Source: a virus. Taken from it: 64,000 nt of DNA. The position numbers and the translations under genes are program-made. Below the pieces are notes generated by a model that worked only from the letters and a program-made list of their open reading frames with translations, was not told the origin of the DNA and ran no database searches. Location of the stretch: positions 101,990 through 165,989 of the IMG/VR virus record IMGVR_UViG_3300045988_048622. One strand, 5' to 3'. Below, piece by piece: positions 24,623 to 63,795 of this stretch (position 1 is the first letter of the stretch; every line of letters begins with the position of its first letter).

Positions 24623-24695
24623 ATCCCCCACCCGGATTCGAACCGACGACCTTCAGGTTATGAGCCTGACTAGCTACCTCTGCTATCATCCCGCG
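24623..24695 (-). tRNA. tRNA-Met-like (anticodon CAT; initiator-like body) with an anomalous acceptor stem
   Basis: D-arm, anticodon arm (TCAGG/CTCATAA/CCTGA) and T-arm resemble bacterial initiator tRNA, but the 5' (CGCGGGA) and 3' (TGGGGGA) acceptor strands are not complementary in my reading. Confidence 0.35.
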
Positions 24696-24904: not shown

Positions 24905-24977
24905 TGGACACGCAGGGACTCGAACCCTATCTTCCGGTGTGCAAAACCAGCGCTCTAGCCATTTGAGCTAACGGCCC
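24905..24977 (-). tRNA. tRNA-Ala-like (anticodon TGC) with an anomalous acceptor stem
   Basis: Good D-arm, anticodon arm (CTGGT/TTTGCAC/ACCGG) and T-arm, but the 5' GGGCCGT and 3' CGTGTCC acceptor strands do not pair. Confidence 0.35.
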
Positions 24978-38097: not shown

Positions 38098-38559
38098 TTA
38101 TTTCTCTATCTTAGAGAAAGTATAATTTAATCTTTCTATAGATATGATGCAATCTTTTGCAAAGTTTATACCTTTTGTCTAATTATTAGCTGGAGGTTCC
38201 TCCCTAATAGTAATAGAATTTCTATTAGCAACATCACATTCTGGAAATATATAGATGTTATGAAGGTCGCAACATATCATAATATCTATTTCATCCTCGT
38301 TGTATTTGTGAACGGTCCCTTTGTTATAATTATTACTTGTTAAACTAAAGTTCAACGAGTTATTTACAGTTTTACTCGCAGTAGTTTTCACCTAAGTTCT
38401 GTAAAACTTGTTATTATAATATATAACAAAATCAAATGGTAGATTGTCAGACATTGGTAATAAAATATCTAATCCATATTTTGATAATTCACCAATGGCT
38501 ATACGCTCTCCTATTTCTCCGAGCTACTTTTTATTTCTTAATTCGTCTACATTTATCAT
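38098..38559 (-). CDS. PD-(D/E)XK nuclease paralog (Hjc-like), read with TAG as a sense codon
   Basis: Hand translation MINVDELRNKKQLGEIGERIAIGELSKYGLDILLPMSDNLPFDFVIYYNNKFYRTQVKTT... with three in-frame TAGs; same family as 36668-37069; ORF-track fragment 38179..38391 is its middle part. Confidence 0.45.
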
Positions 38560-38792: not shown

Positions 38793-39752
38793 TTAAATCT
38801 TCTCTTCAGAGATTAGTGCGTTCCCACAAGTAATTCGGTCAGAATCTTCCTCCTTAGATGGAACAAACACTATAACATCCCAACCTTCTTTCAATAAAGG
38901 TTGTTCGAATTGACGATAAACATTATAATCAGAGTAGCCAGTTACTTCAAAACCATTCTCAACTGCGGATGCAGTTTCATGAATAGGGGTTATTTTCACA
39001 ATAAACTTCTCTTTATCGAAAAGTCTAGATAACTCCTTTGCATCCAGAATAGTCTGTGCAGTAACTGGGAAATTCAACGTATACTTTCTACCTTTCGGCA
39101 TAGGTAAACGACTAGCCATTTCTGAAATAGTAGCTAATGAATGACTTTTGTTGTCAAATAGCTCTCTTCTCTGTTCATCATCAGTAGAATTTATTGAGAA
39201 TTGAAGACCTGCCTCACCTCCGTAGAAATCATTCTTGATTCCACACCAAGTTTGTATGAAGTTCTCTAGTTTTCTATTAGCTCTAGGAAGCATAGTAGAA
39301 ACTACTGGATGGACAGTCTTAGCTATCAATCCACAACTCTTTACTACTTCTTTTAGAACAATCCCAAATGCTAGCACATTATCGTTCCAAGTTGGCTCTC
39401 CCATTCTTGCGAAATGCACATTGAATCTGTCAGTATTCCTAACAGTCTCATTCTTGATAATGTTTCTTATTTGCCATTCCATCTCTTCAATAGAAACGTT
39501 TCCATGGAATCCAAATTTCGGAACATCACAGAATTTGCATTCCATTGGACATCCTTTCTGAGTGGAAATAGTTGCAACCCACTTCTTATTAAGGTCAACT
39601 TCAGTATTAGCTACTCCGTTAATCTCCTTAGTTAATCCTAGGAAATTAGCTTTGATATTGTTCTCTTTTCCATAGTCTCCTACGGTTAGAAATTCAAGTT
39701 TATGTTCTGTATCAACATAAATCTTTCCTGTGTGAGTAAGTATTGTCTTCAT
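38793..39752 (+). CDS. radical-SAM RNA methyltransferase, RlmN/Cfr family
   Basis: STQKGCPMECKFCDVPKFG matches the RlmN/Cfr signature S.Q.GC...C.FC.T (CX3CX2C); a downstream MGEPTWND corresponds to the family's MGMGEPL motif; lone plus-strand gene inside the tRNA array. Confidence 0.6.
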
Positions 39753-42120: not shown

Positions 42121-42190
42121 GTTCCCCACTCCGGGTTTGAACCAGAATCTCCTTCTTTAGAGGAAGGCGCAATGCATTATACTAATGGGG
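42121..42190 (-). tRNA. amber-suppressor tRNA (anticodon CTA), copy 2 with a different body
   Basis: Acceptor TCCCCAT/GTGGGGA, anticodon stem CCTTC/GAAGG with loop CTCTAAA (C34 U35 A36 = CUA), T-arm TCTGGTTCAAACCCGGA; lies in an ORF-free 1.2 kb region. Confidence 0.55.
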
Positions 42191-43033
42191 AAAACTCTAT
42201 CTTGGCAACTAGTATAAGATAGGGAGTTATTCAACTACTTAATTCTCAGTTTCCTATACTGAAAATCAAATAGCTACGTTACTAACGTTCACTAAGAATA
42301 TAGGTAGCTAATCCATATTCTTGCGACTGAGTTCGAGGTAGGAAATATACCCTTATGAGGTATCCTCTTATCAGCTAGCCTTATTAATCTAGCGGCTTAT
42401 ACCAGGCAACTTCTAATACAATTGCATAACATATAAAAATATGACATACATGGTCTACTGGTATGTCAGCAGTACTTTCATATATTGCTATAAGTGACCA
42501 ATCTTATAGCTCAATCCTCCTTACTCATGAGATAAGTTTGCGAACTCTCATTTTCATTAATAGCAGTTATTTTCGGATATTGGGCTATCTGCGTAACCCC
42601 GCTTTTTGTTGCCTTTTTATAGGCTAATGTTAGAGTAAATAATCATTGTAGTATGAGTTATAAAACTCGTCCTACTGGCGATTTTTTGAAAACTGGAAAA
42701 AGTAGGAAAATCTGCCTTTGAGTTTGTGGAACATTCTTCTCCTTACTTGCCCATATTTTCTTTTGTGAAACTGAATTTTCAAAAGAAATGATAGTCTTTC
42801 CTATCAGCCAGACATAAAAACTAAAACTACTACAAAAGTTAACTCGGTTTTGATTTTTTTTTGTTTTGTTGTTGATTTCTCCGTTGACCAATGATGGAGT
42901 TCATATGGGCATTTTATTTATACTCGTAATACCTTAGAGTTGCACGTTTGACTTATTTTAAATCTCGTTGTGCGCTGAGATTGACTCTAAGATTCGGTCA
43001 CACTCTCACTTATTTATACACGAGAGAGTCGTG

Positions 43034-44446: not shown

Positions 44447-44583
44447 ACAAATAGCTCAAATAAGAATACTCCTTGCTAATGTAAATGCAACCATGTAGGC
44501 TTTATTTCACGAAAACGAACAGCTAAGGAAAGAACTAGAGAAATTGGCAGCGGAGAATAAATCTCTAAAAGAGAAATAAATAC

Positions 44584-44655
44584 TGCCCTATGGTGTAATG
44601 GTCAGCACAGATGACTCTAAATCATTTAGTCTGGGTTCGAATCCTAGTAGGGCAA
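44584..44655 (+). tRNA. amber-suppressor tRNA (anticodon CTA), tRNA-Gln-derived
   Basis: Acceptor TGCCCTA/TAGGGCA, D-arm TGGTGTAATGGT nearly identical to the tRNA-Gln(TTG) at 30391-30462, anticodon stem GATGA/TCATT with loop CTCTAAA (CUA), T-arm CTGGGTTCGAATCCTAG. Confidence 0.75.
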
Positions 44656-44672
44656 CGCCAAAATTAATAGTT

Positions 44673-44900
44673 ATGATAAATTTAAATGAGAATTATGCTG
44701 TAACTCCAACAGGAGCTAAGACCCTTATTATTGAAGAGGGAGATGATTGGAATAAAGTTTGCGATAAGGTAGTTGGATGTAGATTTGATTACATATTTGT
44801 ACCTCAAGAATTTGAGAATCAAGCCTGCTACTTTCTTCCACAAATAAGTATTCAAGGAAAGCAGATAGGTAAGATATGTACTTATAAAGTAGTGAAATGA
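44673..44900 (+). CDS. hypothetical protein
   Basis: ORF-track 44598..44900 trimmed to the first ATG after the tRNA. Confidence 0.35.
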   Translation: MINLNENYAVTPTGAKTLIIEEGDDWNKVCDKVVGCRFDYIFVPQEFENQACYFLPQISIQGKQIGKICTYKVVK

Positions 44901-45211
44901 AACAGTGTGCAGTCGTATTGAATGGTAATGATGTTGTCAAAGTTTCTAATTTAAAAAGAAAGTATGACAAAATAATGAGTAATCCCAATATGAAAATATT
45001 GGAGGAGTGTGATAAGGAAATGCTAGATGAGAAATACAACTACTGGAATAGAACATTAAATAGAAATATAGAAGAGGAGAAAAATGAGGAAGCAAAACTC
45101 CATCATTTTAGGAATCCAAAAACAGGTTGCACTATAGCAAGTATCTATCCAGATTTAGAGGAATGTAAATCATATATAAAAGACTGGATGGATTATGTTA
45201 AACTTGACTGA
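44897..45211 (+). CDS. hypothetical protein
   Basis: 104-aa ORF. Confidence 0.35.
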   Translation: MKQCAVVLNGNDVVKVSNLKRKYDKIMSNPNMKILEECDKEMLDEKYNYWNRTLNRNIEEEKNEEAKLHHFRNPKTGCTIASIYPDLEECKSYIKDWMDYVKLD

Positions 45212-45379
45212 TAAATACAATGAACTAACTAAGCCAAATTTAAAAGAGTTATCTGAAACTATACTCCTAGCAGCAGAATCTTTAATTGAGATTGTTGCAG
45301 AAGAAGGAAAACAAAATGAACAATGGTTTCTAGATTACCTAGATGAATTAAATAGACTAAGTGTAATATACTAAAATAT

Positions 45380-45616
45380 ATGGATAAAGAATTTAAATTT
45401 GAAGTCTTTATTAACGGTCAACTAATAAATATGATAAAAGCCGGATATTTAGAAAGTACACTTAGAAGTGTTCCGGAGAATAAATCATTACTGATTGATA
45501 TATGGAATGTAGTTGACAATTCAGTTAGAAATCTAATTAAAAATGGACTATATAAAGACACTACACTAGAAAAAGCAATAATTGATAATACATTTGAGGG
45601 ATATGATAGACTTTAA
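45380..45616 (+). CDS. hypothetical protein
   Basis: 78-aa ORF. Confidence 0.35.
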   Translation: MDKEFKFEVFINGQLINMIKAGYLESTLRSVPENKSLLIDIWNVVDNSVRNLIKNGLYKDTTLEKAIIDNTFEGYDRL

Positions 45617-45818
45617 AAAGACATTGACAAACTTACATAATGAATTTCCAGAATTTGACTTGGATACATTATTTAAAATAGTAGATGCTATAGTAGAAAC
45701 TTCTACTCCTACAATAACCATCCCAAGTGGTATTAGATAGCCATCAGATAAACCTTGGTGGGAGGATGGTATAAATAGAATCACTTGTACTTATGATACA
45801 AAGTATAATGTTAAATAA
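45603..45818 (+). CDS. hypothetical small protein (one TAG read as a sense codon)
   Basis: ATG at 45603; reading through one TAG extends it to TAA at 45816-45818. Confidence 0.25.
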
Positions 45819-46122
45819 AAATAGGCGAACCTAATCTCTAGGCTCGCCTATTTTGTTATATAATATAGTACCAATCAGTTCTCTCCATGACTCCCTTTTC
45901 TCTAAGCTATTTATTATCTAAATGATAATCTCCGTTTCTGAAATTCAATTCCTTTTTAGAATAATCCCAATAAAAATATCCTCTCCATCCAGGAAGTAAG
46001 AGAGTACGACCTGTTGCCGCGTGTAAAGTTGCTTTGTTATAGTCCATGTTACTTTTTAAATATAAATAGTAAATATAGATATATTCTTAATACAATCTCT
46101 TTAATGCACTTAATAATGTTTT

Positions 46123-46464
46123 TCATCGTTTCTTAGTTTTAATAAATCCATAAGTTCCCTTCTTTAATCTAGTAGTAGGAATCCATCCATTATCTAGAAT
46201 AGACCTATGTCCACTCGGTTTATGTATCTTAGCCCCATCTTCGTGTTTCCATTTAGAAGCATTTCTAGCAAAATTAGCTCGCTTCTTCTAAAGAAGGGTA
46301 GCGTTAGGATTGTTTAGTACATGCTTAGCGTGTTCTTGTACAGATTCTCCTGCTGCCTTGGCAGATGCTGTAAATTTGCCTCTGTTCTTCTCTTTAATGT
46401 GAATGCCCGACCCATTTTTGAAAATTGGACACCCAAATGTTGTAATTTTCTTACTGTTAGACAT
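46123..46464 (-). CDS. hypothetical basic protein (one TAG read as a sense codon)
   Basis: 113-aa minus-strand ORF MSNSKKITTFGCPIFKNG...; a single in-frame TAG joins two fragments, each under 60 aa. Confidence 0.35.
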
Positions 46465-46578
46465 TTTTAATATAATGTATTATTTATTGATTTGTATCTT
46501 ACAAAGAATATTAATATACTTGAAAAGTATCAAATAAATATAGATAAATGTGATAAATGATTAAATGAATTATGACTA

Positions 46579-47493
46579 ATGGACAAAAGTAAAATTACAA
46601 AACAAAATGGGAACATAGCTTTTGAGGAAGAAGCTCATATTTATTATGATGTTACAAAGCCAGAACAGAAGTTTATATCTGTAACGACTTTAATTCATTC
46701 TTTCACCCAACCATTTGATAAGGAGTTCTGGTCAGCATATAAAGCACTAGAGAAACTCTTACCTAAAGAAGATTGGGCTATAGAAAAAAAGTCTTTGTTG
46801 AACACTAAGAAATTTGATAAAGTTCTACTTGAACTTCATAACATTACAGAAGACGAGTTTAATAAAGAGCAACAAACTATCTTAGATGCTTGGGATTTAG
46901 AGAATAGAAACTCATGCGAGAGGGGAACTAAAATCCATGCAGATTTGGAAAACTCTTTCTATAAAAAGAAACAGAACATAGACCTTAGTAAATATCAAAT
47001 AGGTGGCAAGTTCGAGTGTATAAAAGACCACAATGAATTAGACTTAGAGAATGGTGTATATCCTGAGTATTTAATATCTAGAGTATCGGATGATGGAAAG
47101 CTAAGAATAGCAGGACAGATTGACTTATTAGTTAAAAGAGGAAATAAGATAATTATAGGAGACTGGAAGACCAATAAGAAAATAGAAACTAAGAGTTTCT
47201 TCAATTCTAAAACCAAAACTTCTGTTAAGATGAAATATCCTCTAAATAATTTAGATGATGTTAATTACTGGCACTATACTTTACAATTAAGTACTTATGC
47301 TTGGATGATTCAAAAGAAAAATCCAGAGTTTGAAATAGAGGATTTGGTTTTGGTACATTTCGACCATAATGACAATATGACAGTATATCATTTGCCATAT
47401 CTAAAAGATGAGGTTATAAAAATGCTAGCCTTCTATAAGAAGGAATCTATATTGGCAGAAAATAAAAGAAAACGTCAACGTATTGAATATTAA
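46579..47493 (+). CDS. PD-(D/E)XK nuclease (YqaJ/Cas4-like exonuclease fold)
   Basis: Core motif ...GQIDLLVKRGNKIIIGDWKTNKK... (D...D/E-x-K). Confidence 0.5.
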   Translation: MDKSKITKQNGNIAFEEEAHIYYDVTKPEQKFISVTTLIHSFTQPFDKEFWSAYKALEKLLPKEDWAIEKKSLLNTKKFDKVLLELHNITEDEFNKEQQTILDAWDLENRNSCERGTKIHADLENSFYKKKQNIDLSKYQIGGKFECIKDHNELDLENGVYPEYLISRVSDDGKLRIAGQIDLLVKRGNKIIIGDWKTNKKIETKSFFNSKTKTSVKMKYPLNNLDDVNYWHYTLQLSTYAWMIQKKNPEFEIEDLVLVHFDHNDNMTVYHLPYLKDEVIKMLAFYKKESILAENKRKRQRIEY

Positions 47494-47495
47494 TT

Positions 47496-47711
47496 ATGAC
47501 ACTAGAGGAAATAGAAGAAAGATTTGAGATATGTAGACGCTGTCCAATATGTGACCAAGATAATGGATTATGTAATGGGCATTTGTATCTAAATCCAAAG
47601 AATAATGATATAAGTATAAGCCCTAAAGAAGGGTATATAAAGGGATGTGGATGTTTACTAGAGAAGAAGATTCCAAACGAAAAGAAACATTGCCCAGCAG
47701 GGAAATGGTAA
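47496..47711 (+). CDS. small Cys-rich zinc-binding protein
   Basis: CRRCPICDQ...CNGH...GCGC...HCPAGKW. Confidence 0.4.
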   Translation: MTLEEIEERFEICRRCPICDQDNGLCNGHLYLNPKNNDISISPKEGYIKGCGCLLEKKIPNEKKHCPAGKW

Positions 47712-47797
47712 TCTATGGAACTCCTATATTATATAAACCAGATAAGCATTATATACTTACTGTCCAAAATATAAACGAGAAGGAGGAAGAAGATATG

Positions 47798-48028
47798 ATA
47801 TGGAAATGGATTAAAGCAATATTTATTAAACCTTTAACAATATTGAAAAGTATATATTTCAATATATTCGGAATAAATCAAGATTTGACAACCAAAAGAT
47901 TAAAAATTTGTGACGCTTGTTCCCATAAATTACAAACATCTGTTGGGGAAGTGTGCGATGAATGTGGTTGTATATTAGAGAATAAAACAAGAATTGAAGA
48001 TGAACATTGTGATTTATGTAAATGGTAA
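47798..48028 (+). CDS. small Cys-rich zinc-binding protein (paralog of 47496-47711)
   Basis: CDACSH...CDECGC...HCDLCKW; start trimmed from ORF-track 47645 to the in-frame ATG at 47798. Confidence 0.35.
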   Translation: MWKWIKAIFIKPLTILKSIYFNIFGINQDLTTKRLKICDACSHKLQTSVGEVCDECGCILENKTRIEDEHCDLCKW

Positions 48029-48036
48029 AATGAATT

Positions 48037-48639
48037 ATGGAAACTTTAAGAACAGAATTAAACAGTAACGAAAAACTAGCACTATCATTAACTGGAATGG
48101 AAGGTACGGGAGAACATTTTATTTTAAATGGAGAGGCTGCAGACCAAACATTATTAAGAGAAAAACAAGAAAAGTTTAATACCGCAGTAGATGAGTTAGA
48201 AGATAAATTCTCTAAACATAATCAGGCACTAGAGGATTACGCTAAATCATTATCTAACGATATGAATGGAGTTGAAATTATGCCGATGTATGGGTATGCA
48301 TTAATTAAACCCTTTGAACAAAACCCATTCCAAAAAATAAAAACTACTAAAAGCGGTCTTATTACTGATTTAGGTGGATTTACTCCTACTTATAAATCTA
48401 ATGAGACTGGAGAAATTGAAGAAGAGCAACAATTTATTAAGGTAGGAACTGTGATAGAAGTAGGACATAAGTGTGAGTTCTTGAAGCCTGGAGATATTGT
48501 ATTTTATACAATAGCTAGTGAATGTATGGTTCCATTCTATAAACTAGGATTTGTAGTAGTTAATGAGAATAGAATCATGGCTGTAGTTAATGAGAAACTA
48601 ACTGAAAGAAGAGACGAATTGAAGCATGGAAACAATTGA
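48037..48639 (+). CDS. hypothetical protein
   Basis: 200-aa ORF in the standard code. Confidence 0.4.
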   Translation: METLRTELNSNEKLALSLTGMEGTGEHFILNGEAADQTLLREKQEKFNTAVDELEDKFSKHNQALEDYAKSLSNDMNGVEIMPMYGYALIKPFEQNPFQKIKTTKSGLITDLGGFTPTYKSNETGEIEEEQQFIKVGTVIEVGHKCEFLKPGDIVFYTIASECMVPFYKLGFVVVNENRIMAVVNEKLTERRDELKHGNN

Positions 48640-48849
48640 TGAAAAAGTTTATTTTAAGCCTGGGGATTGTGTTACTTTACGGTAGTGTAAAGTAATGCAC
48701 TCTCCAGTTATGCTTGTTCTAAGAAGAGAAGCAGCTTTATTTAAAGATAACCAAGGATTACGAGGACTAAGATGTAGATGGTTTACTGATTCTGGATTAA
48801 TGCAGGAAGCAGTATTTAATACAAAGGATTTAATTAAAGTAGAAGAGTA

Positions 48850-49422
48850 ATGGCTAATTAGGAAGAATTACAGAAAGCATTCATGGCATACTTGATACAA
48901 GATGCCCAAGCACAAGGGATACAACTACAATCAGAGCAAGATTTATAGGCTTACGCTGAGTAGCTTGGAGAAGATGGAATCAAAGCCAAGTATCAAGAAT
49001 TTATGTAGAAGATGCAAGGCGGAGTTATGGCTAGACTTGGAGCTAAACTAGAATACTATAAAAAATTAAAAGGAGTATGCCCAGAAGGAGAGGAACTTGT
49101 TTATTTTAAACAGGGAGGAAGAATCTGCAAAGCTTGCCAAAAAGCATAGAAAGGAACTAAGGTTACTAAGAAAGCTAATGAAGTTGACAAGTTCAAGGCT
49201 GGAAGAGCTTAGTATAAAAAGGATATGAAATCTGCAAAGGATGAAGCATCCAGAGATTCTGTATCTATTAATAAATATAATGACTAGGAGGTCATGGCAA
49301 ATAGAGGACACAAGGGAAACTTTAAAAATGGAAAATGGGTTCCAGATAGAACAAAGTATGCTAAGAAAGATGCTTGTGGTTCTAAAATGAAAGTAAGTAA
49401 ATGCGGTTCTAAAATGAAATAA
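48850..49422 (+). CDS. hypothetical protein (TAG read as a sense codon)
   Basis: 190-aa ORF with nine in-frame TAGs, all in Q-rich context (QDAQAQGIQLQSEQDLQAYAEQL); C-terminal CxxC pairs. Confidence 0.5.
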
Positions 49423-49452
49423 AAAGATTAAAGATGTTAATGTTAATGATTG

Positions 49453-50019
49453 ATGAGTATGAATGTATTTAATTATAACACTTTAACTAAATAGTTAGAA
49501 ATAAATGAACCAGAGCTTCTTCTAGTTAAAGAGTTTAAGGCTTTGATACAGAGAGATAAATCTGTTGACAAGGAACGAGTAACTAGAGAATTATCTTACA
49601 TTTATCTAGCTATTGATTGGAAGAGTCCCTATAGCCAATATTCAGAACATGAAAGACATGATGAAGCTATTAGTGACTCTGGACTATCTGAATCCGAATT
49701 TAATGACCCGTTATTCAGGGAAGCCTGTAGAAAATACCGAGCATTGTAGGATTCTAACAAATCAATAAAACTTCTAGAAGCAGCTAAAAGAGCAGCTGAC
49801 TAGTTTATTGATTATTTTGATACTATAGTAGATTTAAATGAACGTGATAATAATGGCAAACCCGTCTTTCAAGCTGAAAAGGTAATGAAAGAAATGGCTA
49901 CTCTTCATAAAGTTCATGAAGAATTAGTAACACTAGAAGAGCAGGTTAAGAAAGAGCTTACAGAACAATCTACTGTAAGAGGTGGAGCTACAGACGGCTT
50001 TGACCCAGGAGACTTTTAA
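49453..50019 (+). CDS. hypothetical protein directly upstream of TerL (possible small terminase subunit)
   Basis: 188-aa ORF with three TAGs; its position immediately 5' of the large terminase is the only support for a TerS call. Confidence 0.35.
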
Positions 50020-50021
50020 TT

Positions 50022-52382
50022 ATGCCTAGAAAGAAAAAAATATTACCTGAAGAAATCTAGAATATAGTAGATTAGGTAAGAGAGAAAGAACAAAAAGAGG
50101 ATGCCAAAGAAGCTAGAGAACTAGTATAGAAGATAAGAGAGGAAAGAGGCAAAAATGCTGATTATTGGGATGTAAAAAGAGGAGATAAGATAGAGGTATT
50201 TGACCCTACTTTATCTTATGAAATAACTGGATATAGACCAATAGATGAAACACATGGTCTTGATTTCGACCCAGATTGGTTTACTGAGACCAGAGAAGTA
50301 TATAGAAAAACTGGAAAGTATTGTCCATATCTAAAAGATAGTAAGAGATATAATGAGTTTTGGAAGGAATAGTATAGAAGATGTAAATATGGAATGACTG
50401 TTAATGGTTATACAATTACTGGAGATAACTATTTCTTCCTAAACTTCTACTAGCTTCCTATTATTGATGATAACAAGGCATCTGGAGAAGGAACAAGTAG
50501 TGACTTTCCTATATTTTTCGCATCTCATTATATGTTCTTTCATTATCTATAGATGGCTAGAGTTCTGCATAAACACGCAGCTCTTATGAAAGCTCGTTCT
50601 ATTGGATTCTCTGAAATAAATGCATCCTTATCTGCAAGAATGTATTCAGTAATCAGAAGAAGCAGAGTAATGATTACCTGTTTTAATGATACCTTCCTTA
50701 AAGGTACTTTTAGTAAGTTTGATAATGCTTTAACATTCTTGAATACTTGTACAGGAGGAGGATTCTTCAAACTACGTTTGATTGACCAAGACTTAAGAAA
50801 GAAGTCCGGTAAACAGATTAAGGTAAACGGACAGTTTGAGGATGTTGGATTTAAATCGGAAGTAGTTGGAATAAACGGAGCTAAGGCATCTAATATTCGT
50901 GGAGACCGTGTTGACTTATTAATATATGATGAAGCAGGATCTTGGCCTGGACTAGATACTGCTGTAGTGTAGGGACAAGAGCTTTGTGAAGTTCAAGGTA
51001 AACCTCGTGGAACAATGTTATTTGGAGGTACTGGTGGTGATATGGGCGCTCCATTAGCAGGTCTTAAGAAGATATATTATAATCCAAAAGCTTACAAAGT
51101 TCTTCCATTTAGACATAATTATACCCAGGATGGGACTACTATTGAAAGTGGGTTCTTCATTCCATATTTTGTCTAGTCTCTAAATTCAGAATACATGGAC
51201 CATAGAGGTGTATGTAATACAGTAGAATATAAGAAGTATCTATAGGAAGAGCGCGACAATTTATTAGCAGTTCCAGATGACTATCTAAAGAAGTGTGCTG
51301 AACGATGTTGGAATGCAGAAGAAGCATTTAATCTTGAAGGTGTTAACAAGTTCAACAAGATTCTTATTGCGGACCAGTTAGCTAATATAAGACTTAAGAA
51401 AATAGGACCAAGACCAGAATCTGGATACATAGACTATTTCTATAAAAATAATAAACACACCTAGGATAATATAGATGGTTTTAAATGGATTCCTAATATT
51501 AACGGAAAAGTAAAAATACTTGAACATCCTGTATGGTCTGATTTGTATAAAGAGTAGATGGATAAACTTAGATAGGAAGCCGAGGAAAGGGGAGAAGAAT
51601 TTGAATCTCCAGCGTACAAAGAAATGCATGATTTATATGTTGCAGGAATAGACGGTATTGATATAGGAGCTAGTCAAACTTCAAAAGAAACAAGAGATCC
51701 TTCTGATTTCTGTATAACTATAAAAAAAAGAGCATTTGGTCTAAACGAACCGTAGTATGTTGCTATGTATAAAGACAGACCTAATGACATTAGAGAAGCC
51801 TATAAAATAGCTATGTGTTTAGCTAGATACTATAATTGTAGAATAAACATAGAAGCTACCCGTGTAGGTATGATTACCTGGGCTAGAGAAAAGGGTTGTT
51901 TAAACTACTTTATGAAAAGACCTAGAGCTACTCTAACAGACGTCAAGAATGGAACTACTAAATAGTACGGAACACCCGCTACCAAAACTATTATAGAACA
52001 ACATACTGATTTGACAGCAGCCTTTATTGAGGATTTCTGTCATACTATATGGTTTGAAGAAATGTTAGACCAATTTACTGGATATAATGATGAGAATAAA
52101 GGTAAATTCGATATTGTAGCAGCTGTGGGAATGACAGAATTGGCAGACTAGGAATTGTCAGGAAGATAGCCAGTGCTTGTTGAAAAAGAAGTTGAACAAT
52201 TCCAAGATTATGGTTATTATTACGACGAGAGAGGAATCAAAAGATTTGGGGTTATACCAACTTCTAAGACTTTTGAAACTAACATACAAAAAAATGAATA
52301 CGATGACCCATACAGAATTGAAACAAGTGATCCTAGGTTATATGAGAGACTTGTACAAAATGGAATACGTAGGTGGGCTTGA
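50022..52382 (+). CDS. terL: terminase large subunit (TAG read as a sense codon)
   Basis: 786-aa ORF continuous through about 20 in-frame TAGs and ending at TGA; Walker B-like VDLLIYDEAG; C-terminal RNase-H-like nuclease segment (GIDGIDIGASQTSKETRDPSDF); ORF-track fragments 50553.., 51765.. and 52173.. share its frame. Confidence 0.7.
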
Positions 52383-52638
52383 AATTCAGAACCTAGATCC
52401 AGTTGGTTATAAGGTATCGTTTAACTTTGATAGGTCAGAGATGCCTTTAGTCATTATAGCTGATTTACCTGATGAAGAATTTCTCCCATTTATAAAGGAA
52501 GAATTAAGAAGTAGGAAGTTACAAAGAGTTAAATACTATAATGCAACTAAACTTCCTCCAGAACAGCATAATTTATGTTATGAAAGAAAAAGAACTGATA
52601 GACAAGACGAACGAGGCTATTGCGGAGCTTGTATATGA
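52360..52638 (+). CDS. questionable small ORF overlapping the TerL 3' end
   Basis: Frame-1 ORF (ORF-track 52177..52638) trimmed to an internal ATG; may not be a real gene. Confidence 0.15.
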   Translation: MEYVGGLEIQNLDPVGYKVSFNFDRSEMPLVIIADLPDEEFLPFIKEELRSRKLQRVKYYNATKLPPEQHNLCYERKRTDRQDERGYCGACI

Positions 52639-54751
52639 TAAGTACGAATTATAGAAAGCCTATAATTACTATAACGGAAAGAGAGACCCAGAATAGTTTC
52701 GTTACCTGGAAGAAAACTTTGGAATAGGTAGTCCTACTTCTGTAGAATTTACACCATTACTAAAAAAGCACGTAGATGCTCTAGTAGGGGAATATCTAGG
52801 AACCCCTATCCTTCCGAAGATTTCTTGTAAGGATTCAGATACCATTAGTAATATCACCAGAGAAAAATAGTTAGAAATAACTAAAGGAATAGTTAAATTT
52901 CTTAGAGACCATTTAAGTAATTCTATTCTGAAATTTATCGACGGAAAAGATATTACAGATAAAGCCGTGAAGACTTAGTTAGATAAAATTATTCAAGACA
53001 TTGATTAGTCTTTTATTTCTCAATATGAGATAGCTGCATAGAATATTATTCATTATATTATGCAGTCTAGAGAAACCGATTTAATAACTAAACTCCGATA
53101 GTTACTTACAGATTTATTAATTACTGGCTATACATTTTTCAGAGTAAAATCATCATCTTCTGGAACTAACATAGAAATAGAAGTTCTGAATCCTTTAAAT
53201 ACTTTCGTAGATAGGAATCCAGAATCTCCATATGTTAGAAATTCGTATAGAGTAGTAGTTAGAAAATGGATGAGTAAAAGCTAGATATTAGCTAAATACG
53301 GAAAAGAAATCTCTAGAGAAGATCTGAAAAGACTAAAAGATGAATGGAGAGCCGATGATTCAGCTGCAGTTTATAGAAGAGTTTATGGTGACACTTGTAC
53401 TATAGTAAACGAAGACTAGAATCATGAAACTATTCCTGGATATCCAGATAATGAATATAGTGCTCATAGATTTTAGTTAATTCCTGTTTATGATGTAGAG
53501 TGGATAGAAACTGATGACGATTTTGTAATGTAGAGATACAATACCATTAGAATTGGAGAAGAAATATATATTCTGAGAGGTCTAGACAAGACTGTTATGA
53601 GGTCAAAAGATAATCCTAATTTCTGCTCTTTGTCTGTGAATGGGGTATATTTCTTAAATCGTTCTCAACAACCGTACTCTCTGATATTAAAGTGTGCACA
53701 TCTACAGGATAGATATGACTTGTTAAATTATTATAGGGATAACCTGATAGCTAACAGCGGTACTGCTGGAGTAATCATGGATATGTCATTGCTTCCTACT
53801 AACCTAGGCGTAAAATGGCCAGAAAGAGTGTAGAAATGGTTAGCATACAAGAAGGGTGGTATCATGTGGATTGATTCTACTTAGGAAGGGAGAAATGACG
53901 GAGCGCAAGCACCTAACTAGATATACAATGGATTTGATGATACCTTAAAAGCTTAGGCTGTATAGGCTATTGAATTAGCAATTCAATCAGTAGAACAAAC
54001 TACATCATCTATAACTGGAGTATTTAGAGAAAGATTAAATGGAATAGAAACTCACGATGCTGTAACTAATATTAAGCAAGGTGTTACTAACTCTTACATA
54101 GTAACCAAGCATTATTTCTAGTAGATGGACCTAATCACTTGTGAGATATTATTGGATAGTCTAAACTAGGCTAAAATAACATATAAGAAAGGATTGACTG
54201 GTACTATTATACTTGGAGATAAATACTAGCAGATATTTACAGCACTTCCAGAATATTTTACGGTTACTGATTATGACATCCATATAACTTCTAGCTCTGA
54301 AGTAATGGAAGATTTACAAACTATTAAAGCCATTATTCCAGAGTTTGTTAAAAGTCAGCAAATGGATCCTGACATCATATTTGAAGCACTAACTGCTAAG
54401 AGTCTTACAGACCTTAAATATAAGGTTAAGAAAGCAGTATAGATTCGTAAAGAAGAAAACAATTAGCTATAGCAGCTATAGGAAAAACTGGAAGAAACTT
54501 CACAATAGGCACAGCAGTTACAGCAAGAACTATAGAAAGCTTAGTAGAAGATAGAAAGTTTGGATGAATAGAGATTAGGATTAGAGTAGCAGAAAATGTA
54601 GTTAGAATATAAAGTTAACTGGCTCAAAGCTCAATCTGATTCTACATATAAAGATAGACAAATGGATATAGAAGAAAAGAGAACTGAAATAGAGTTAGCT
54701 TAGCTTCATGATGGAAATCCATATAATGACAAAATAAGACAAATACATTAA
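52541..54751 (+). CDS. portal protein (TAG read as a sense codon)
   Basis: About 736 aa (alternative start 52580), continuous through more than 30 TAGs to TAA at 54749-54751; frame checked codon by codon from 53831. Size, position after TerL, and the Q-rich C-terminal coiled coil (QQLQEKLEETSQQAQQLQQELQKAQQKIESL) fit a portal. Confidence 0.55.
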
Positions 54752-54752
54752 T

Positions 54753-55487
54753 ATGGCAACTGGAACAATTGTATATAATAAGGATTAGCAATAGATTTAT
54801 CCTATTTCAGATGGTTCAGTAATTATTAGTAATGCTTCTGGTTCCAAATCAAATGTGGAAGAAGATTTAAAGAAACTATTTAAATAGGTGTCAGATCTTT
54901 CTGGTTCTAGTGAAGCGGTAAATAATATTATTATTAAGATTCATTACTTACCTGCTGATACTGCTGAAGAATCTGAGATAAAATTATCTACTAAATAGTG
55001 GACTGATACTTTTGAACTTCCAACTGAAGAGAATCCATACATCTGGAAAAGAACTAAATTTACTTTCTAGGGAGCTGACGAATCTCAGGGAACTACTATT
55101 TATGAGATTGTGGCAAGCGATGTTTCTACTATTATCTAGAATATATACACTAGAACTGAGGGAATAACTCCAGTTATTGAGTATAAGCAGAAAACAGATG
55201 AGGATGGAAATCCTCTATATGTAGATTCAGAAGGACATGAAACAACGACTGTTACTCCAACTAAGGCATATGACTATAATTATTATTGGAATGGGAAACC
55301 AGCTGGTAAATTAAATAGTCTACCACCGACTCCTGAAGGTTAGTCATATACATGGACAGACTATCCTCAAGATATTAGTTTATCATTTAGTTCAGTTTTT
55401 ATGTCTAGACGTATACGACAAGAAGGTAAGTGGAAACCATTTTCTACTCCTGCTCAATATGGTCAATGGTCTACTACTGAGTCTTAA
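54753..55487 (+). CDS. virion structural protein, hypothetical (TAG read as a sense codon)
   Basis: 244-aa ORF with seven TAGs. Confidence 0.45.
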
Positions 55488-55497
55488 TTATTATAAT

Positions 55498-56226
55498 ATG
55501 GAATTTAGTATTGATATACATACCCAGATTAACGGGGAAATAACTATTGAAGACTTTTCAAAGGAATATGGATAGTATATTGATGAAGATTTAGAGGTAG
55601 TAACTTCCTATGATTCTTATAAGTATAGTGAAAGTGCTACCCTAAATACTATCATAAAAGTTAGTATAGGAGATGCTACTTTGATAGACGTACTTCTCAA
55701 TGACCATACAGAGGATTTAGACTCTTGTACATTTAAGGTGAAAGAAGATGGATATTATGTAGTAGACCACATAATTCTTCCTAATATGAAATGGTATGAA
55801 AATTCATCTGATGAATACAAGGAGTATTATGAAACTATCTATATAACTGATGGAGAGAAACTATATAAAGAAGTAGATGGAGAGCTAGAGGAATGTACTG
55901 TAAAAGAAATCCTTGAGAGAAATATAGAAGGAACTACTATCAAAAAATGTAAGGTAGATGTATTCTTTACAGGAAATCTGCAATAGTGTTATATTAACTA
56001 CTGTAAGAAACTCTTTGACTCTTTATTAAATAAGTGTCTAACTAGAGAACATGATGCAGATATATTTGCAAGAGATTTTATCTGGATGACACTTAACATT
56101 ATAGATTATTTAATAGGCTTTAAACAATTCATGGAAGCTGAAAGATTGTTAGCAATGTTCCGTACTTGCGGTGGATTCTGTAACAATCACCATGAACATA
56201 AACGTATAGGTTGTGGATGCTCTTAA
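55498..56226 (+). CDS. hypothetical protein, Cys-rich C-terminus (TAG read as a sense codon)
   Basis: 242 aa; extends ORF-track 55681..55986 upstream through one TAG and downstream past a TAG to TAA at 56224-56226. Confidence 0.45.
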
Positions 56227-56381
56227 AAGAAAGGCTATTAAAAGGTATGAGGATTTCCTTAAAAGGGTTAGAAAGGGATATAGACCAGATTATTAGGATA
56301 TTTTGAATCTAATTTGTTTTATTAACCTACCCGTAAAATTAGATAATCACGAATTTATTAAATAGCAATTATTGAATCATA

Positions 56382-57971
56382 ATGATACAGCCTATTTATA
56401 CTTCGGTAAGCAATGCTGATATAAAGCCTTGTGGAAAGAAAGGACATTTAATAAAAAGTGAACCTATACCTCTCCTAAGAAACAACTATCTTGGAGAATA
56501 TAGAACTGAATTAGAAAGAGCTAAGGTTAGAAAGAATCTAGGTATCGCTGATGAGTAGAGTCTTCTTTGGGGAAATATAGAAGGAACTATAGAAGCCTAG
56601 AAAGATTTAGTATAGTACATAGAATAGAAATGGACTTATACTAGTGATGTTGCAGAGAATATCAATACTGTAAAAGATGCCTTAGATTATGCTTTATTCT
56701 TTATAAGTTAGTACGAAGCTAATACAGAAGAAATAGAGGAAATAAAAGTTGATATAAGTAATATCAGAACTTCTATTACTGTACTTAAGGAAGAACTTGA
56801 AGAAGAAATTGAATCTAACAGAACTGGCATAAACAATCTTTCTGAGAAAATAACCTAGATTAATGAGGCAATAGAGGATATTAATGAGTCTATCAAAAAT
56901 ATAGATGTTGACAAAAACATCTAGAATTGGATAACTAATAGTCTAAGAAACTCCAAAACCATAGAAATAAAGGATGATAATACTCTAGAAGTAATTCTAT
57001 CTTAGTAGGAGGATAATGCAATACATCTGATTCAGTAGGAAATTCCTCCAGTAGAGGAGGAAGGAGAACCTTCCACAGTAGTTCTACCTGGAATATATGT
57101 AAAAGACCTGGAACCATCTCTAACAGAGGTAAAGGAAGAAGTTAAGGGAGTATAGGAAGCTTAGAAGAACACTGATTCTAAAGTAGATTCTAATACTGAA
57201 AATATCACAAATATATAGACAAGTTTAGAAACTATAGCTACTTATTAGACGGAACTCCCAGATGATACTACTTCAACAGTAATTGAAGGGACTACAGTAG
57301 AGAAACTTAAGGGCAAGCCCTTTAATGAGATTATTGATACTTTACTATTTCCAACAGTAGTTAGAGATTTAGTATACCCATAGCTTTATTATAGTTTTAC
57401 TTCTCAAATAGTAGAAGTAGGAACTGCTTTATTAACTCCTACACTTACATTTATAAAGAATGATGCTGGAGAAGAAACTGACAGACAAGAAACTATTACT
57501 TATAACAGTTCTCCTGTAGAGTCTGATACATATAATTCTATTGGTACTTATACTCACTCTGGTACAGTGAGTTATGCCGCTGGAGAATATTTGATAAACA
57601 ATAAAGGAGAAGTTACAGATAAGAGAGTAGAAGCTGGTTCTATTTCCGCTACCGCTTAGGTAGTAGCCACATATCCTTGGTATTCTGGTAATACTGATAG
57701 TGTGATTAAATAGGCGCTAGTTCCTTTTGGACAATCGTCTGGAACTATCACATTTTCACTAAGTGGTAAGGCTATTATAAAATTGCCAGGAAGTAACACA
57801 TAGTTAAATTCATTTACCGTAGATGGGGGACTTGGATATTTAAATGTAGACCTAAGTGGTTGGGAAACGTCTACCGAGTAGATAAATGGATTTACTTACA
57901 AGGTATGGACTAAGAAAGATACTTACTCCTCAGCATTGCCACATCAAATTAACTTTATTCTATCACAATAA
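56382..57971 (+). CDS. structural protein with central coiled coil (tail/fibre-like), TAG read as a sense codon
   Basis: 529-aa ORF with about 25 TAGs; heptad-rich centre and beta-rich C-terminus. Confidence 0.45.
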
Positions 57972-59809
57972 TGGCATTTAAATATACAGGTGATGCTACC
58001 TTAGGTGTCGCTTTAACCGTAGAAACTCCGAAGCCTCTCGATAATAGAACAGTCGTTAATAACTTAGACGAACTTTATTCTATTCCAGAGAAGTATGCTT
58101 ATCAAGGTATGACCGTTGCTAACATAGATAACGGAAATATTTATATGCTAATTGATAAGTCTAAGATTAAATACAAGGAAGGATGGAAAGCATCCTATGA
58201 ATCTATCTAGATAATCACCTGTACAGAGGCTGAATATAAAGAATGGTCTGAGAATACTACAGACGATTTTAGGCCCATAGATGAAAGTAAAACGTATCTT
58301 CATGCTGAGACATATTATTATATATATGAGGATAGCTTAGACGATGACTAGTTTTACCTATCCGCAGAATGGGGAAAAAAGATAGAAGAGCAATTAAAAC
58401 AGAAGGCCCTTAATACTACTGTAGTATAGATTAGAACAGACTTAGATAACACTATTGCCAGCCTATCAGATTACGCTACACTGGAAGAATTAACTACTAA
58501 TTATGTCTCTAACGATTCTTTAGCTCTATCCCTGACTAAGTATTATACTAAGGAAGAAACAAACGATATTTTCGTTACTAAAGAAAGCCTTAGAGGAGAG
58601 GGAATGGAAGGAGATGATTTTGTCTTCGTTACAAAGAAAGAATATGAGGAAGATTAGTAGGCTATCCAAGACGAGTTAGATAAAACTCTTAAGGTAGATG
58701 GAGATGGCTCCTTAGAAAGCATCACTGTTGGGTAGATAAAATCTCCTGTGGCGGAGGGAGAGAGCTAGTTAGTAGTAGACGTTAGGTCTGAAGGATTATT
58801 TATAGGTGAAGATTAGATTGCTACTGAATCGGATATTCCGAACTTAGTAACATTAACTGAAGAAGAGTATCTAAAGTTAGTAGAGGAAGGGACGGTAGAA
58901 CCTGATACATATTACTATGTATATGACGTTACAAATGATGCAAAGGTTTATATTACTAAGGAATATTTGGATTAGAATTATCATACTACTAATCAATATC
59001 AGTCCTGGGTTGCTACAAATTATTACTCCAAGAAGTAGATTGATGAAATAGTTCAAGGTTTGCAAAAACTTGGAAACTACGTTACTACAGAAGATATTAA
59101 GGCTTATTATACTATTTAGCAGGTTGATGACAAATTTCTTACTAAGGAAAATGCTCAGTCTACTTATGCTACTCAATAGTCATTATCTGATTTATCAGAT
59201 TAGATAGCCGAAGATTACGTAACAAAAGAAAGTTTAAGGGGAGACTCTCCTGAAACCGGAGATGATGATTTCATATTTGTTACCTAGAAAAAATATCAGG
59301 ATGATTAGGCTGCTGCTGCTAAAGAATTTAGCACTGAGCTTTTGAAATCTACATCAGTAGAAACTTCTGATATTACTATTTAGAAAATTGGAGAAAAAGA
59401 AGTACAATAGGGAACAACTGGAGAACCTTCTGAGGAAACAGGAACTGAGCAAGTTATTGAGAGTTCTGTTAAACTTACCACAGAAGATAACAGGCTATTT
59501 GCTGGAGGCAAGCAAGTTGCTATTACTGAAGAAGTACCAAAACTTGTATGCTTACCACAAGCTGATTATGATGACCTAGTTGAGAATAGTAAGACTGAAG
59601 AAGATACTTATTATTGCACCTATGGAGAAAAAGATTTACAAGATACTGGATATGTTAGAAGCGAATATCTTATAGAGAGATACTACACCAAAGCTGAGGT
59701 AGAAGAACTAATTAGCTAGGCCGTAGCCGAATTGTAGAAAAAGATAGACGCTTTATAGCCAGGTTCTAGTGTAGAGGTAGATGGAGAAAATGAACAATTA
59801 ATATTTTAA
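57971..59809 (+). CDS. structural protein (tail fibre-like), TAG read as a sense codon
   Basis: 612-aa ORF; its start overlaps the upstream stop (taATG); about 30 TAGs; extends ORF-track 57971..58210. Confidence 0.45.
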
Positions 59810-59814
59810 ACAAT

Positions 59815-60027
59815 ATGGGAACAATTTATATTGAAGGACAGTTTAAGAGTTCTGCCAAACCAGTAAAAGTTGTTGGAGGAAGTATAGGAGGAGGCTCTGG
59901 AGTAGACTAGGAAGTTCTCAAGAACTATGCTACTAAAGCAGAATTGTAGAAGGCTGTTGAGGACCTAACTGCTTCCATAGAGGGAATAGATCACGATGTA
60001 GTTGATGAAACTTTAATAATACAATGA
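59815..60027 (+). CDS. small hypothetical protein
   Basis: 70 aa with two TAGs. Confidence 0.3.
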
Positions 60028-60028
60028 T

Positions 60029-61849: not shown

Positions 61850-61925
61850 GATAAAATATAGAAAATCGATTTAGATATAAATCGTAGGATATTACTTCTA
61901 AAAACCGTTGATTGGCAAAAAAGAA

Positions 61926-63375: not shown

Positions 63376-63382
63376 AATACAA

Positions 63383-63748: not shown

Positions 63749-63795
63749 TTTAAAATTGTTAAGTATTGTACTTTACAATATTAAAAATCTAATAA

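What the first reader, a model, noticed from the sequence alone, without database searches (positions are those of the whole stretch)
38793..39752. RlmN/Cfr-family radical-SAM methyltransferase embedded in the tRNA array
The CX3CX2C cluster context (S-T-Q-K-G-C-P-M-E-C-K-F-C-D-V-P) and the downstream MGEPT motif match the RlmN/Cfr family. RlmN makes m2A in 23S rRNA and tRNA A37; Cfr makes m8A2503 and confers multidrug resistance. A phage copy sitting between tRNA genes suggests modification of the phage's own tRNAs, possibly the suppressors, or of host ribosomes. It is the only plus-strand gene in that stretch.
Basis: partly seen in the sequence, partly recalled or inferred. Interest (0 to 1): 0.55.

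Follow-up and report, generated by a model that had tools for sequence, protein, structure and literature searches.

The report
Divergent RlmN-like radical-SAM phage enzyme
This gut-phage gene encodes a real radical-SAM enzyme whose fold is closest to the RNA methylases RlmN and Cfr, but it belongs to a large uncharacterised sister family that lacks one of their two catalytic cysteines and their RNA-binding domain, so it is probably neither an rRNA/tRNA m2A methylase nor an antibiotic-resistance gene.

Summary
The ORF and both motifs are real (38793-39752, 319 aa), but the gene is on the minus strand, co-oriented with the tRNAs. It is not "the only plus-strand gene".

- It scores 39 bits against the RlmN model (cutoff 290) and 29-31 bits against the Cfr models (cutoffs 530-550).
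- It lacks the N-terminal domain.
- The E. coli C355 equivalent is kept (C309; 31/34 relatives), but the C118 equivalent is never Cys (T61; 0/34).

It belongs to PHROG 24834, with more than 7,000 homologs, mostly from gut phages.

The closest cellular relatives are fusions of a QueT-like ECF transporter, the rSAM domain and an MTA/SAH nucleosidase. A more distant clade sits in isochorismatase-flavoprotein-rSAM operons. Both contexts suggest a small-molecule substrate.

The tRNA-array location holds only in the ~97-100%-identical clade. Relatives at 80-84% identity, and Bacteroides phage Versailles, have no nearby tRNAs.

Orthology to queuine lyase QueL was tested and rejected. The substrate remains unknown.

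The parts
38793..39752 (-). CDS, 319 aa: radical-SAM enzyme of the RlmN/Cfr fold (PHROG 24834 family)
39528..39551 (-). CX3CX2C motif (C68, C72, C75), the [4Fe-4S]/SAM cluster ligands
   Evidence: Coordinates; the three Cys are conserved in 34/34, 33/34 and 34/34 relatives and align to E. coli RlmN C125/C129/C132
39570..39572 (-). Thr61, at the position of E. coli RlmN C118 (the adduct-resolving Cys); not Cys
   Evidence: BLASTP register I62<->V119; MAFFT column holds 0/34 Cys (I, T, N, A, V, M, L)
39390..39404 (-). MGEPT, equivalent to the RlmN 'MGMGEP' SAM-binding motif
   Evidence: Coordinates; aligned to RlmN; G117/E118/P119 in alignment numbering (real 118-120) are invariant or nearly so in the family
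39585..39680 (-). Subfamily-specific N-terminal insertion GDYGKENNIKANFLGL...(residues 25-56). Shared with the QueT-rSAM-MTAN fusions; absent from RlmN/Cfr and from the isochorismatase-operon clade
   Evidence: Alignment A1 columns 57-96; invariant G24-D25-Y26-G27 (alignment numbering) in A3; present in P0131-P0133
38826..38828 (-). Cys309 in 'RITCGNAL', the equivalent of E. coli RlmN C355 / Cfr 'AACGQL' (methyl-carrier Cys on the flexible C-terminal loop)
   Evidence: MAFFT with RlmN: 31/34 Cys; the profile alignment to Cfr puts the family 'nCGQ' on Cfr 'AACGQL'; low pLDDT of residues 301-318 fits a mobile loop
38580..38730 (-). tRNA-Arg(TCT) and tRNA-Lys(TTT) immediately downstream on the same strand; probably the same transcript
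   Evidence: ARAGORN and Rfam; 62-nt gap; no minus-strand terminator-like site between them; the same rSAM-Arg-Lys-Pro-Tyr-Tyr-His order occurs in L137-L143 and L151

Best explanation
The gene encodes a functional radical-SAM enzyme from an uncharacterised, phage-rich sister family of the class-A radical-SAM methylases RlmN and Cfr. SHOWN: it has the RlmN/Cfr fold and core motifs, an intact CX3CX2C site, and the C-terminal loop Cys (C309 = E. coli RlmN C355). It has no C118 equivalent and no N-terminal RlmN domain, and it is clearly separated from the curated RlmN and Cfr models. INFERRED mechanism: as in RlmN/Cfr, one SAM methylates C309. A second SAM is cleaved at the [4Fe-4S] cluster to give a 5'-deoxyadenosyl radical, which activates the S-methyl group for attack on an sp2 carbon of the substrate. 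Because the resolving Cys is absent, product release must differ from RlmN. INFERRED substrate: not 23S rRNA A2503, and probably not RNA at all. The more likely substrate is a free purine-like or 7-deazapurine-like metabolite. The closest cellular relatives are single polypeptides joining a QueT-type ECF substrate-capture domain, this rSAM domain and an MTA/SAH nucleosidase (an enzyme known to clear SAH and 5'-dA, the two by-products of the two-SAM reaction). The next clade is encoded with an isochorismatase-type hydrolase and a CxxC-less thioredoxin-reductase-like flavoprotein. In the phage it would act early, as a stand-alone auxiliary enzyme on a host metabolite. Its position in front of the tRNA array is a feature of this phage lineage only.
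For: Fold and homology: (profile covers positions 2-301, including the CGQ loop). Cysteines. Not RlmN or Cfr: (39 bits vs 290; 31 vs 530; 29 vs 550); Pfam gives only Radical_SAM at 19 bits. Size of the family: 795 clusters at 50% identity; 7,087 proteins. Fusions: P0131/P0133 carry QueT (37-40 bits, cutoff 33.7) + Radical_SAM + PNP_UDP_1; P0132/P0160 are QueT-like + rSAM. The P0133 C-terminal domain scores 228 bits against the MTA/SAH nucleosidase model (cutoff 169). The fusions are 42-43% identical to the window protein over its full length and share its N-terminal insertion. They are chromosomal bacterial genes. Second clade: isochorismatase + TrxR-like flavoprotein immediately upstream (14 and 25 of 91 neighbours), fused forms P0206/P0224/P0225/P0245, and flavoproteins without CxxC. 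tRNA linkage not conserved. Standard-code (early) block.
Against: No substrate was identified. The only characterised homologs (RlmN, Cfr) act on RNA. The QueT assignment rests on Pfam scores just above threshold in two of four fusions, and NCBIfam gives no hit. The fusions are rare: 2 short contigs in the metagenome scan and 2 word-index hits. No riboswitch lies upstream of them. The MTA/SAH nucleosidase fusion would suit any radical-SAM enzyme. Homologs do lie in or near tRNA arrays in at least three unrelated phage lineages: this window, Stenotrophomonas phage ANB28 and Pectobacterium phage Wc4. Lack of the N-terminal domain does not exclude nucleic-acid binding. Retention of C309 could reflect a role other than methyl carrier, for example as an H-atom donor.
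Confidence: 0.4

Rival explanations
1. It is a minimal RlmN/Cfr-type RNA methyltransferase that puts a methyl group on C2 or C8 of an adenosine in tRNA (A37 of phage or host tRNAs, perhaps the suppressors) or in 23S rRNA. It would use another residue, or water, in place of C118.
For: RlmN and Cfr are the only significant homologs. The C355 equivalent is conserved. The gene is 62 nt upstream of, and co-oriented with, a tRNA array. Homologs lie inside or beside tRNA arrays in Stenotrophomonas phage ANB28 and Pectobacterium phage Wc4, and near tRNAs in L089, L097, L099 and L113. RNA-repair genes (RtcB, RlaP, CCA-adding-like) sometimes lie nearby.
Against: C118 is absent from every family member. 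From my own knowledge (Grove 2011; Schwalm 2016), RlmN C118A stalls as a covalent enzyme-RNA adduct. The N-terminal domain is absent. Scores are about 10-fold below the curated cutoffs. Of 60 homolog loci, 42 have no tRNA within 4-8 kb, including those 80-84% identical. Versailles has no tRNA in the 50 kb scanned. Relatives are fused to a membrane transporter or sit in metabolic-type operons.
Confidence: 0.22
2. It is a functional analogue (not a homolog) of queuine lyase QueL, or another queuosine-precursor salvage enzyme. It would turn scavenged queuine/queuosine-type compounds into preQ1 (or a related 7-deazaguanine) by radical, non-methylating chemistry, feeding Q34 modification of GUN-anticodon tRNAs (the phage encodes Asn, His and 2x Tyr) or a 7-deazaguanine DNA modification.
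For: The QueT-like transporter + rSAM + nucleosidase fusions mirror the C. difficile queK-qrtT-queL operon, which encodes a nucleosidase, an ECF S-component and a radical-SAM lyase (PMC11477304, PMC11130926). A non-orthologous replacement for QueL has been proposed for streptococci (PMC12632869). The sample is from the gut, where Q-precursor salvage dominates (PMC11130926). A QueE-like gene lies 4 kb from the homolog in Vibrio phage D479.
Confidence: 0.15
3. It modifies the phage's own DNA, by C-methylation or another radical modification of a purine, to evade host restriction.
For: In Versailles the gene lies in the replication/recombination module, next to a ParB-like gene and a resolvase. 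DNA methyltransferases are the most frequent annotated neighbours (7 of 136). In the ~79-kb gut phages it abuts an SMC/SbcC-like ATPase. It is expressed from the early, standard-code block.
Against: No m2A or m8A DNA modification is known (my knowledge). There is no conserved partner such as a glycosylase or transferase. The transporter fusions and metabolic operons of relatives do not fit a DNA substrate. These neighbourhoods are generic for phage early regions.
Confidence: 0.1

Closest known systems
RlmN (dual-specificity 23S rRNA A2503 / tRNA A37 C2-methyltransferase; class A radical-SAM methylase)
   Different: 39 bits against a 290-bit cutoff. No C118 equivalent. About 100 N-terminal residues of RlmN, including its N-terminal domain, have no counterpart; instead there is a 32-residue subfamily-specific insertion. 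Relatives occur in transporter fusions and metabolic operons rather than as a housekeeping gene.
Cfr (23S rRNA A2503 C8-methyltransferase; PhLOPSA resistance)
   Different: 26-31 bits against cutoffs of 440-550 for the Cfr models. Lacks the Cys of Cfr's 'FCISSQ' (the C118 equivalent). Nothing links it to the ribosome or to resistance elements.
QueL, queuine lyase (radical SAM; PDB 6p78; C. difficile CD1684)
   Same: A radical-SAM enzyme. The closest cellular relatives of the window protein carry a QueT-type transporter domain and a nucleosidase domain, echoing the queK-qrtT-queL operon (PMC11477304).
PHROG 24834 / 'COG0820-like' phage radical-SAM proteins (uncharacterised)
   Same: The window protein is a full-length member (E=1.4e-103). 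Homologs occur in Bacteroides phage Versailles (52% identity) and in Vibrio, Pectobacterium, Stenotrophomonas, Salmonella, Aeromonas and Moorella phages and a crAss-like Kehishuvirus. BFVD gives structural matches to a 'COG0820' Caudovirales protein and to a Pseudomonas phage 201phi2-1 protein.
   Different: None; this is the family it belongs to. The family has no assigned function. Source annotations as '23S rRNA (adenine2503-C2)-methyltransferase' are automatic transfers.

Membership tests
RlmN/Cfr (class A radical-SAM RNA methyltransferases) | CX3CX2C [4Fe-4S]/SAM motif in the context S-S/T-Q-x-G-C | tested here: met
   C68/C72/C75 in STQKGCPMECKFC; aligned to E. coli RlmN C125/C129/C132
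RlmN/Cfr (class A radical-SAM RNA methyltransferases) | C-terminal loop Cys that carries the methyl group (E. coli C355, 'AACGQL') | tested here: met
   C309 in RITCGNAL; Cys in 31/34 relatives; aligned to the Cfr/RlmN CGQ
RlmN/Cfr (class A radical-SAM RNA methyltransferases) | Second mechanistic Cys that resolves the Cys-CH2-adenine adduct (E. coli C118) | tested here: not met
   Thr61 in the window protein; 0/34 Cys in that column
RlmN/Cfr (class A radical-SAM RNA methyltransferases) | N-terminal accessory domain preceding the radical-SAM core | tested here: not met
   The family profile starts at Cfr residue 67 and RlmN residue ~101. The window protein has only 60 residues before the cluster strand, against 118 in E. 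coli RlmN.
RlmN/Cfr (class A radical-SAM RNA methyltransferases) | Score above the curated family models (TIGR00048 RlmN; NF000424/TIGR04432 Cfr) | tested here: not met
   39.4 bits vs 290; 31.3 vs 530; 28.8 vs 550
RlmN/Cfr (class A radical-SAM RNA methyltransferases) | Fold closest to RlmN/Cfr among radical-SAM enzymes | tested here: met
RlmN/Cfr (class A radical-SAM RNA methyltransferases) | Catalyses m2A or m8A formation on A2503 of 23S rRNA or A37 of tRNA | not testable with these tools
   Needs biochemistry or mass spectrometry
QueL (queuine lyase) | Sequence or structural homology to QueL (PDB 6p78) | tested here: not met
QueL (queuine lyase) | Genomic linkage to queK/qrtT under a preQ1 riboswitch | tested here: not met
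   No such neighbours in the window or in homolog loci. No Rfam riboswitch upstream of the QueT-fused relatives. Only the QueT-like fusion domain itself points that way.
PHROG 24834 (uncharacterised phage radical-SAM family) | Full-length match to the family profile | tested here: met
   E=1.4e-103, residues 2-316 on profile 5-324 of 336

The most novel reading that the evidence does not exclude
PHROG 24834 and its cellular relatives are class-A-type radical-SAM enzymes that act on a free purine or 7-deazapurine metabolite (for example a queuosine precursor taken up by the fused QueT-like domain) rather than on RNA. They would use the conserved methyl-carrier Cys but a new, C118-independent way of releasing the product. 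Phages of many hosts would carry the enzyme to rewire a host nucleobase or cofactor pool early in infection.
Probability: 0.25. Interest if true: 0.75.

Novelty: new variant of a known kind. Interest (0 to 1): 0.5.

Why it matters
RlmN and Cfr are the only characterised class-A radical-SAM methylases, and their two-cysteine mechanism is a textbook case. Here a very abundant family (more than 7,000 sequences, mostly gut-phage) keeps the fold and the methyl-carrier Cys but never the resolving Cys. It turns up fused to a vitamin-type transporter and a SAM by-product nucleosidase. So either the chemistry or the substrate class must differ from anything described. In practical terms, automatic annotations of these genes as '23S rRNA (adenine2503-C2)-methyltransferase' or as Cfr-like resistance determinants are not justified, which matters for resistome surveys of viromes. 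A cultured system exists for testing: Bacteroides phage Versailles on B. caecimuris.

Tried and rejected

2. Riboswitch upstream of the fused genes, to identify the ligand. Nothing was found above noise in L090, L091, L175, L176 or L177. The window has no riboswitch either.

3. A conserved link to tRNA arrays. Only 18 of 60 homolog loci have any tRNA within 4-8 kb, and loci 80-84% identical have none. I did not compute a background expectation.

4. A conserved protein partner in phage neighbourhoods. A Pfam census of 136 neighbours from 52 non-redundant loci found nothing recurrent beyond DNA methylases (7) and scattered RNA-repair and NAD genes. tblastn of all window ORFs against the distant loci gave only sporadic shared genes.

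5. A link to NAD. The homolog directly follows a Prs-like/NAMPT-like pair in Vibrio phage 496E54-1, and the window has the same pair 28 kb away. The isochorismatases of the second clade are not specifically nicotinamidases: all NCBIfam hits are weak and mixed. I left this as an unexplained coincidence.

6. Isoelectric point as an indicator of RNA binding. It was uninformative: 6.0 for the window protein and a median of 6.3 for a family that ranges from 5.1 to 9.1.

7. Longer homologs (386-513 aa) appear to be merged or extended gene calls with no recognisable extra domain by eye; they were not scanned.

8. The C. difficile QueL sequence and the 2019 PNAS paper could not be retrieved.

9. The afdb50 fold library was not available.

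10. The third homology search, with the QueT-like domain, found only two near-identical fragments.

11. Literature searches for phage RlmN-like enzymes, radical SAM in crAss-like phages, and a 2-methyladenine radical-SAM enzyme found nothing relevant.

12. Technical slip: alignments A1 and A3 and the structure model lack Met1, because I trimmed the start codon instead of the stop. Residue numbers in those outputs are one lower than the real numbering used in this report.

Full report
**1. The observation**

The ORF listing gives one ORF at 38793..39752 on the minus strand, 319 aa, starting with ATG. Its translation contains STQKGCPMECKFCDVP (residues 63-78) and MGEPT (117-121); one search gives the nucleotide coordinates. 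All 20 ARAGORN tRNAs between 18402 and 42191 are also on the minus strand, as are the flanking ORFs.

The stop codon is 62 nt upstream of tRNA-Arg(TCT), which is followed by tRNA-Lys(TTT). No minus-strand terminator-like site lies between them. The next tRNA upstream is the suppressor tRNA(CTA), 2.4 kb away.

The window is a phage. It has a portal, a reverse transcriptase, homing-endonuclease-like genes and a large tRNA set. The plus-strand block after 44.5 kb is TAG-recoded: ORF coverage is 31% under the standard code and 85% with TAG read through. The minus-strand block that holds this gene uses the standard code.

The gene is real and under selection:
- PHROG 24834 matches at E=1.4e-103.
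- 7,087 proteins match at E<=1e-3, up to 98% identical, many on 185-195 kb contigs.
- The identical protein is found on other contigs.

**2. Which family**

Single-sequence evidence is weak but points one way:
- Pfam reports only Radical_SAM, at 19 bits, below its threshold.
- NCBIfam ranks RlmN first (39.4 bits, cutoff 290) and then the Cfr models (26-31 bits, cutoffs 440-550).
- phmmer against the PDB finds only RlmN at E~1e-5.
- BLASTP to E. coli RlmN gives 29% identity over 161 residues.

A profile of 32 diverse family members (A1) makes the relationship solid. Cfr matches at 2.9e-18 and RlmN at 3.6e-18 to 1.5e-17, over profile positions 2-301 and including the C-terminal CGQ loop. The next PDB hit is at 0.0048.

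**3. Why it is not an RlmN or a Cfr**

- The curated model scores are roughly ten-fold below cutoff.
- In a MAFFT alignment of E. coli RlmN with the window protein and 33 relatives, the cluster cysteines are conserved and the C355 equivalent is Cys in 31/34 (C309, 'RITCGNAL'). The C118 column holds I/T/N/A/V/M/L and never Cys; the window protein has Thr61 there (consistent).
- The family begins at the equivalent of RlmN residue ~100, so RlmN's N-terminal domain is absent. The window's subfamily instead has a 32-residue insertion (GDYGKENNIKANFLGL...) before the first core strand.

From established knowledge (my own, not retrieved here: Grove et al. 2011, Boal et al. 2011, Schwalm et al. 2016), C355 carries the methyl group and C118 resolves the Cys-CH2-adenine adduct; C118A RlmN stalls as a covalent enzyme-RNA complex. 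A family that always keeps one Cys and never the other cannot run the RlmN cycle unchanged.

**4. What the relatives say**

An exhaustive HMMER search of representatives at 50% identity finds 795 clusters. Two kinds of context stand out.

(a) The closest non-phage relatives, 42-43% identical over the full length and sharing the N-terminal insertion, are fusions:
- Architectures are QueT-type ECF S-component + rSAM + PNP_UDP_1 (P0131, P0133) or QueT-like + rSAM (P0132, P0160).
- The C-terminal domain of P0133 is a bona fide MTA/SAH nucleosidase (228 bits, cutoff 169). From general knowledge, that enzyme removes SAH and 5'-deoxyadenosine, the two by-products of the RlmN-type two-SAM reaction.
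- These genes are chromosomal and monocistronic in bacteria.
- They are rare.
- No riboswitch lies upstream.

(b) A more distant clade (30-37% identity), found in Elusimicrobia, Aminicenantes, Myxococcota, Thermoplasmata, Heimdallarchaeia and other phyla, is encoded directly after an isochorismatase-family hydrolase and a thioredoxin-reductase-like flavoprotein. The two account for 14 and 25 of 91 neighbours. rSAM-isochorismatase and flavoprotein-rSAM fusions also occur. The flavoproteins lack the CxxC disulfide, which fits an electron-donor role. The hydrolases cannot be assigned more precisely.

A membrane-transporter fusion and a hydrolase/reductase operon both suggest a small-molecule substrate rather than RNA.

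**5. The queuosine lead**

The protein is therefore not a QueL homolog. A functional analogy remains possible, but it rests only on the Pfam QueT assignment (37-40 bits, threshold 33.7, in two of four fusions). No TGT/DpdA/QueC/QueD/QueE genes were detected in the window or among neighbours of homologs.

**6. Is the tRNA neighbourhood meaningful?**

For a link:
- The order rSAM-Arg-Lys-Pro-Tyr-Tyr-His is conserved in the 97-100%-identical clade (L137-L143, L151).
- Homologs also lie within a tRNA array in Stenotrophomonas phage ANB28, 4 kb from the 24-tRNA array of Pectobacterium phage Wc4, and near a few tRNAs in L089, L097, L099 and L113.

Against a link:
- 42 of the 60 scanned loci have no tRNA within 4-8 kb.
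- These include thirteen loci whose protein is 80-84% identical to the window's and which share no neighbours with it. In the ~79-kb gut phages of this group the gene sits between a 195-aa ORF and an SMC-like ATPase.
- Bacteroides phage Versailles (52% identity) has no tRNA in the 50 kb scanned and carries the gene in its replication/recombination module.
- A census of 136 neighbouring ORFs from 52 non-redundant loci shows no recurrent partner.

The tRNA location is lineage-specific. Phage tRNA arrays generally sit among early auxiliary genes, so the co-location is weak evidence at best.

**7. Best explanation and rivals**

What is shown: the gene encodes an intact, widely conserved radical-SAM enzyme of the RlmN/Cfr fold. 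It belongs to a distinct family that keeps the methyl-carrier Cys but has neither the resolving Cys nor the N-terminal domain.

What I infer, with moderate confidence (about 0.4): it still uses methyl-Cys/5'-dA radical chemistry on an sp2 carbon, releases its product differently from RlmN, and acts on a free purine-like or 7-deazapurine-like metabolite rather than on A2503 or A37.

Rivals:
- A minimal tRNA/rRNA methylase (0.22).
- A non-homologous queuine-lyase-type salvage enzyme (0.15).
- A DNA-modifying enzyme (0.10).

The remainder is unassigned. A role as a Cfr-like resistance determinant is very unlikely.

**8. Novelty and verdict**

The family is already catalogued (PHROG 24834; 'COG0820'-type automatic names such as '23S rRNA (adenine2503-C2)-methyltransferase'). 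It is uncharacterised, and the papers I could search contain nothing on it. Relative to RlmN/Cfr it is a new variant of a known kind: same fold and half of the catalytic apparatus, but a different domain make-up and genomic associations.

Interest is moderate (0.5). The single-cysteine architecture, the transporter/nucleosidase fusions and the abundance in gut phages make it a worthwhile enzymology target. Nothing here yet shows an unprecedented function.

Noticed in passing
window 42221-42414 (-): A strong RAGATH-14 RNA match (RF03145, 183.8 bits, gathering score 149.1) lies 30 nt from the suppressor tRNA(CTA) at 42121-42191. It sits at the boundary between the standard-code and TAG-recoded halves of the window.
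   Followed up: no
window 44500-64000 (+) versus 1-43000 (-): The plus-strand (structural/late) block is TAG-recoded: ORF coverage is 31% under the standard code and 85% with TAG read through, with up to 32 in-frame TAGs per gene. The minus-strand block uses the standard code. Two tRNA(CTA) genes (42121-42191 -, 44584-44656 +) flank the switch.
   Followed up: partly
window 8866-9678 (-) and 10062-11624 (-): A Prs-like ribose-phosphate diphosphokinase (56 bits) sits next to a NAMPT/NAPRT-family protein (NF006629, 522 bits). This is an NAD salvage pair resembling the phage NARP1 module (recalled from my own knowledge). In Vibrio phage 496E54-1 the rSAM homolog directly follows the same pair.
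   Followed up: partly
window 38098-38559 (-) and about 36670-37070 (-): PDDEXK_5 endonuclease-like genes are interspersed among the tRNAs. The gene called on the identical public contig at 38098-38559 reads through a stop codon that splits it under code 11; the second gene's window position is converted from L083 12684-13085.
   Followed up: no
window 29033-29446 (-): An ORF with a tRNA-ligase cyclic-phosphodiesterase domain (PF08302) lies inside the tRNA region, hinting at tRNA repair functions.
   Followed up: no
window 12482-13309 (-) and 31013-32971 (-): There are two SPFH/Band_7 (prohibitin-like) proteins. The first has homologs near the rSAM gene in L115 (60% identity) and in Stenotrophomonas phage ANB28. 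Two related phage records annotate the feature under the rSAM match as 'prohibitin family protein'.
   Followed up: no
window 24905-24977 (-), 24631-24686 (-), 36577-36661 (-): The two tRNA callers disagree. Rfam reports two extra tRNA-like hits that ARAGORN does not call (39.5 and 30.2 bits, the latter partial). ARAGORN's tRNA-Tyr at 36577-36661 is not reported by Rfam at the gathering threshold.
   Followed up: no
window 62164-63438 (+, TAG-recoded): A reverse transcriptase (RVT_1) ORF lies in the late block. Bacteroides phage Versailles, which carries the closest cultured homolog of the rSAM, also encodes a reverse transcriptase.
   Followed up: no
loci L039-L082 (for example L043 2369-4840): A conserved three-gene operon, isochorismatase-family hydrolase / CxxC-less TrxR-like flavoprotein / RlmN-like rSAM, is spread across many bacterial and archaeal phyla and has fused variants. 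Its function is unknown, and in L039 it sits next to a Schlafen/AlbA_2 ATPase.
   Followed up: partly
L089 6395-9011: In one phage, five tRNA genes and a Ro60/TROVE + vWA protein lie just upstream of the rSAM homolog. This looks like an RNA quality-control module on a phage contig.
   Followed up: no
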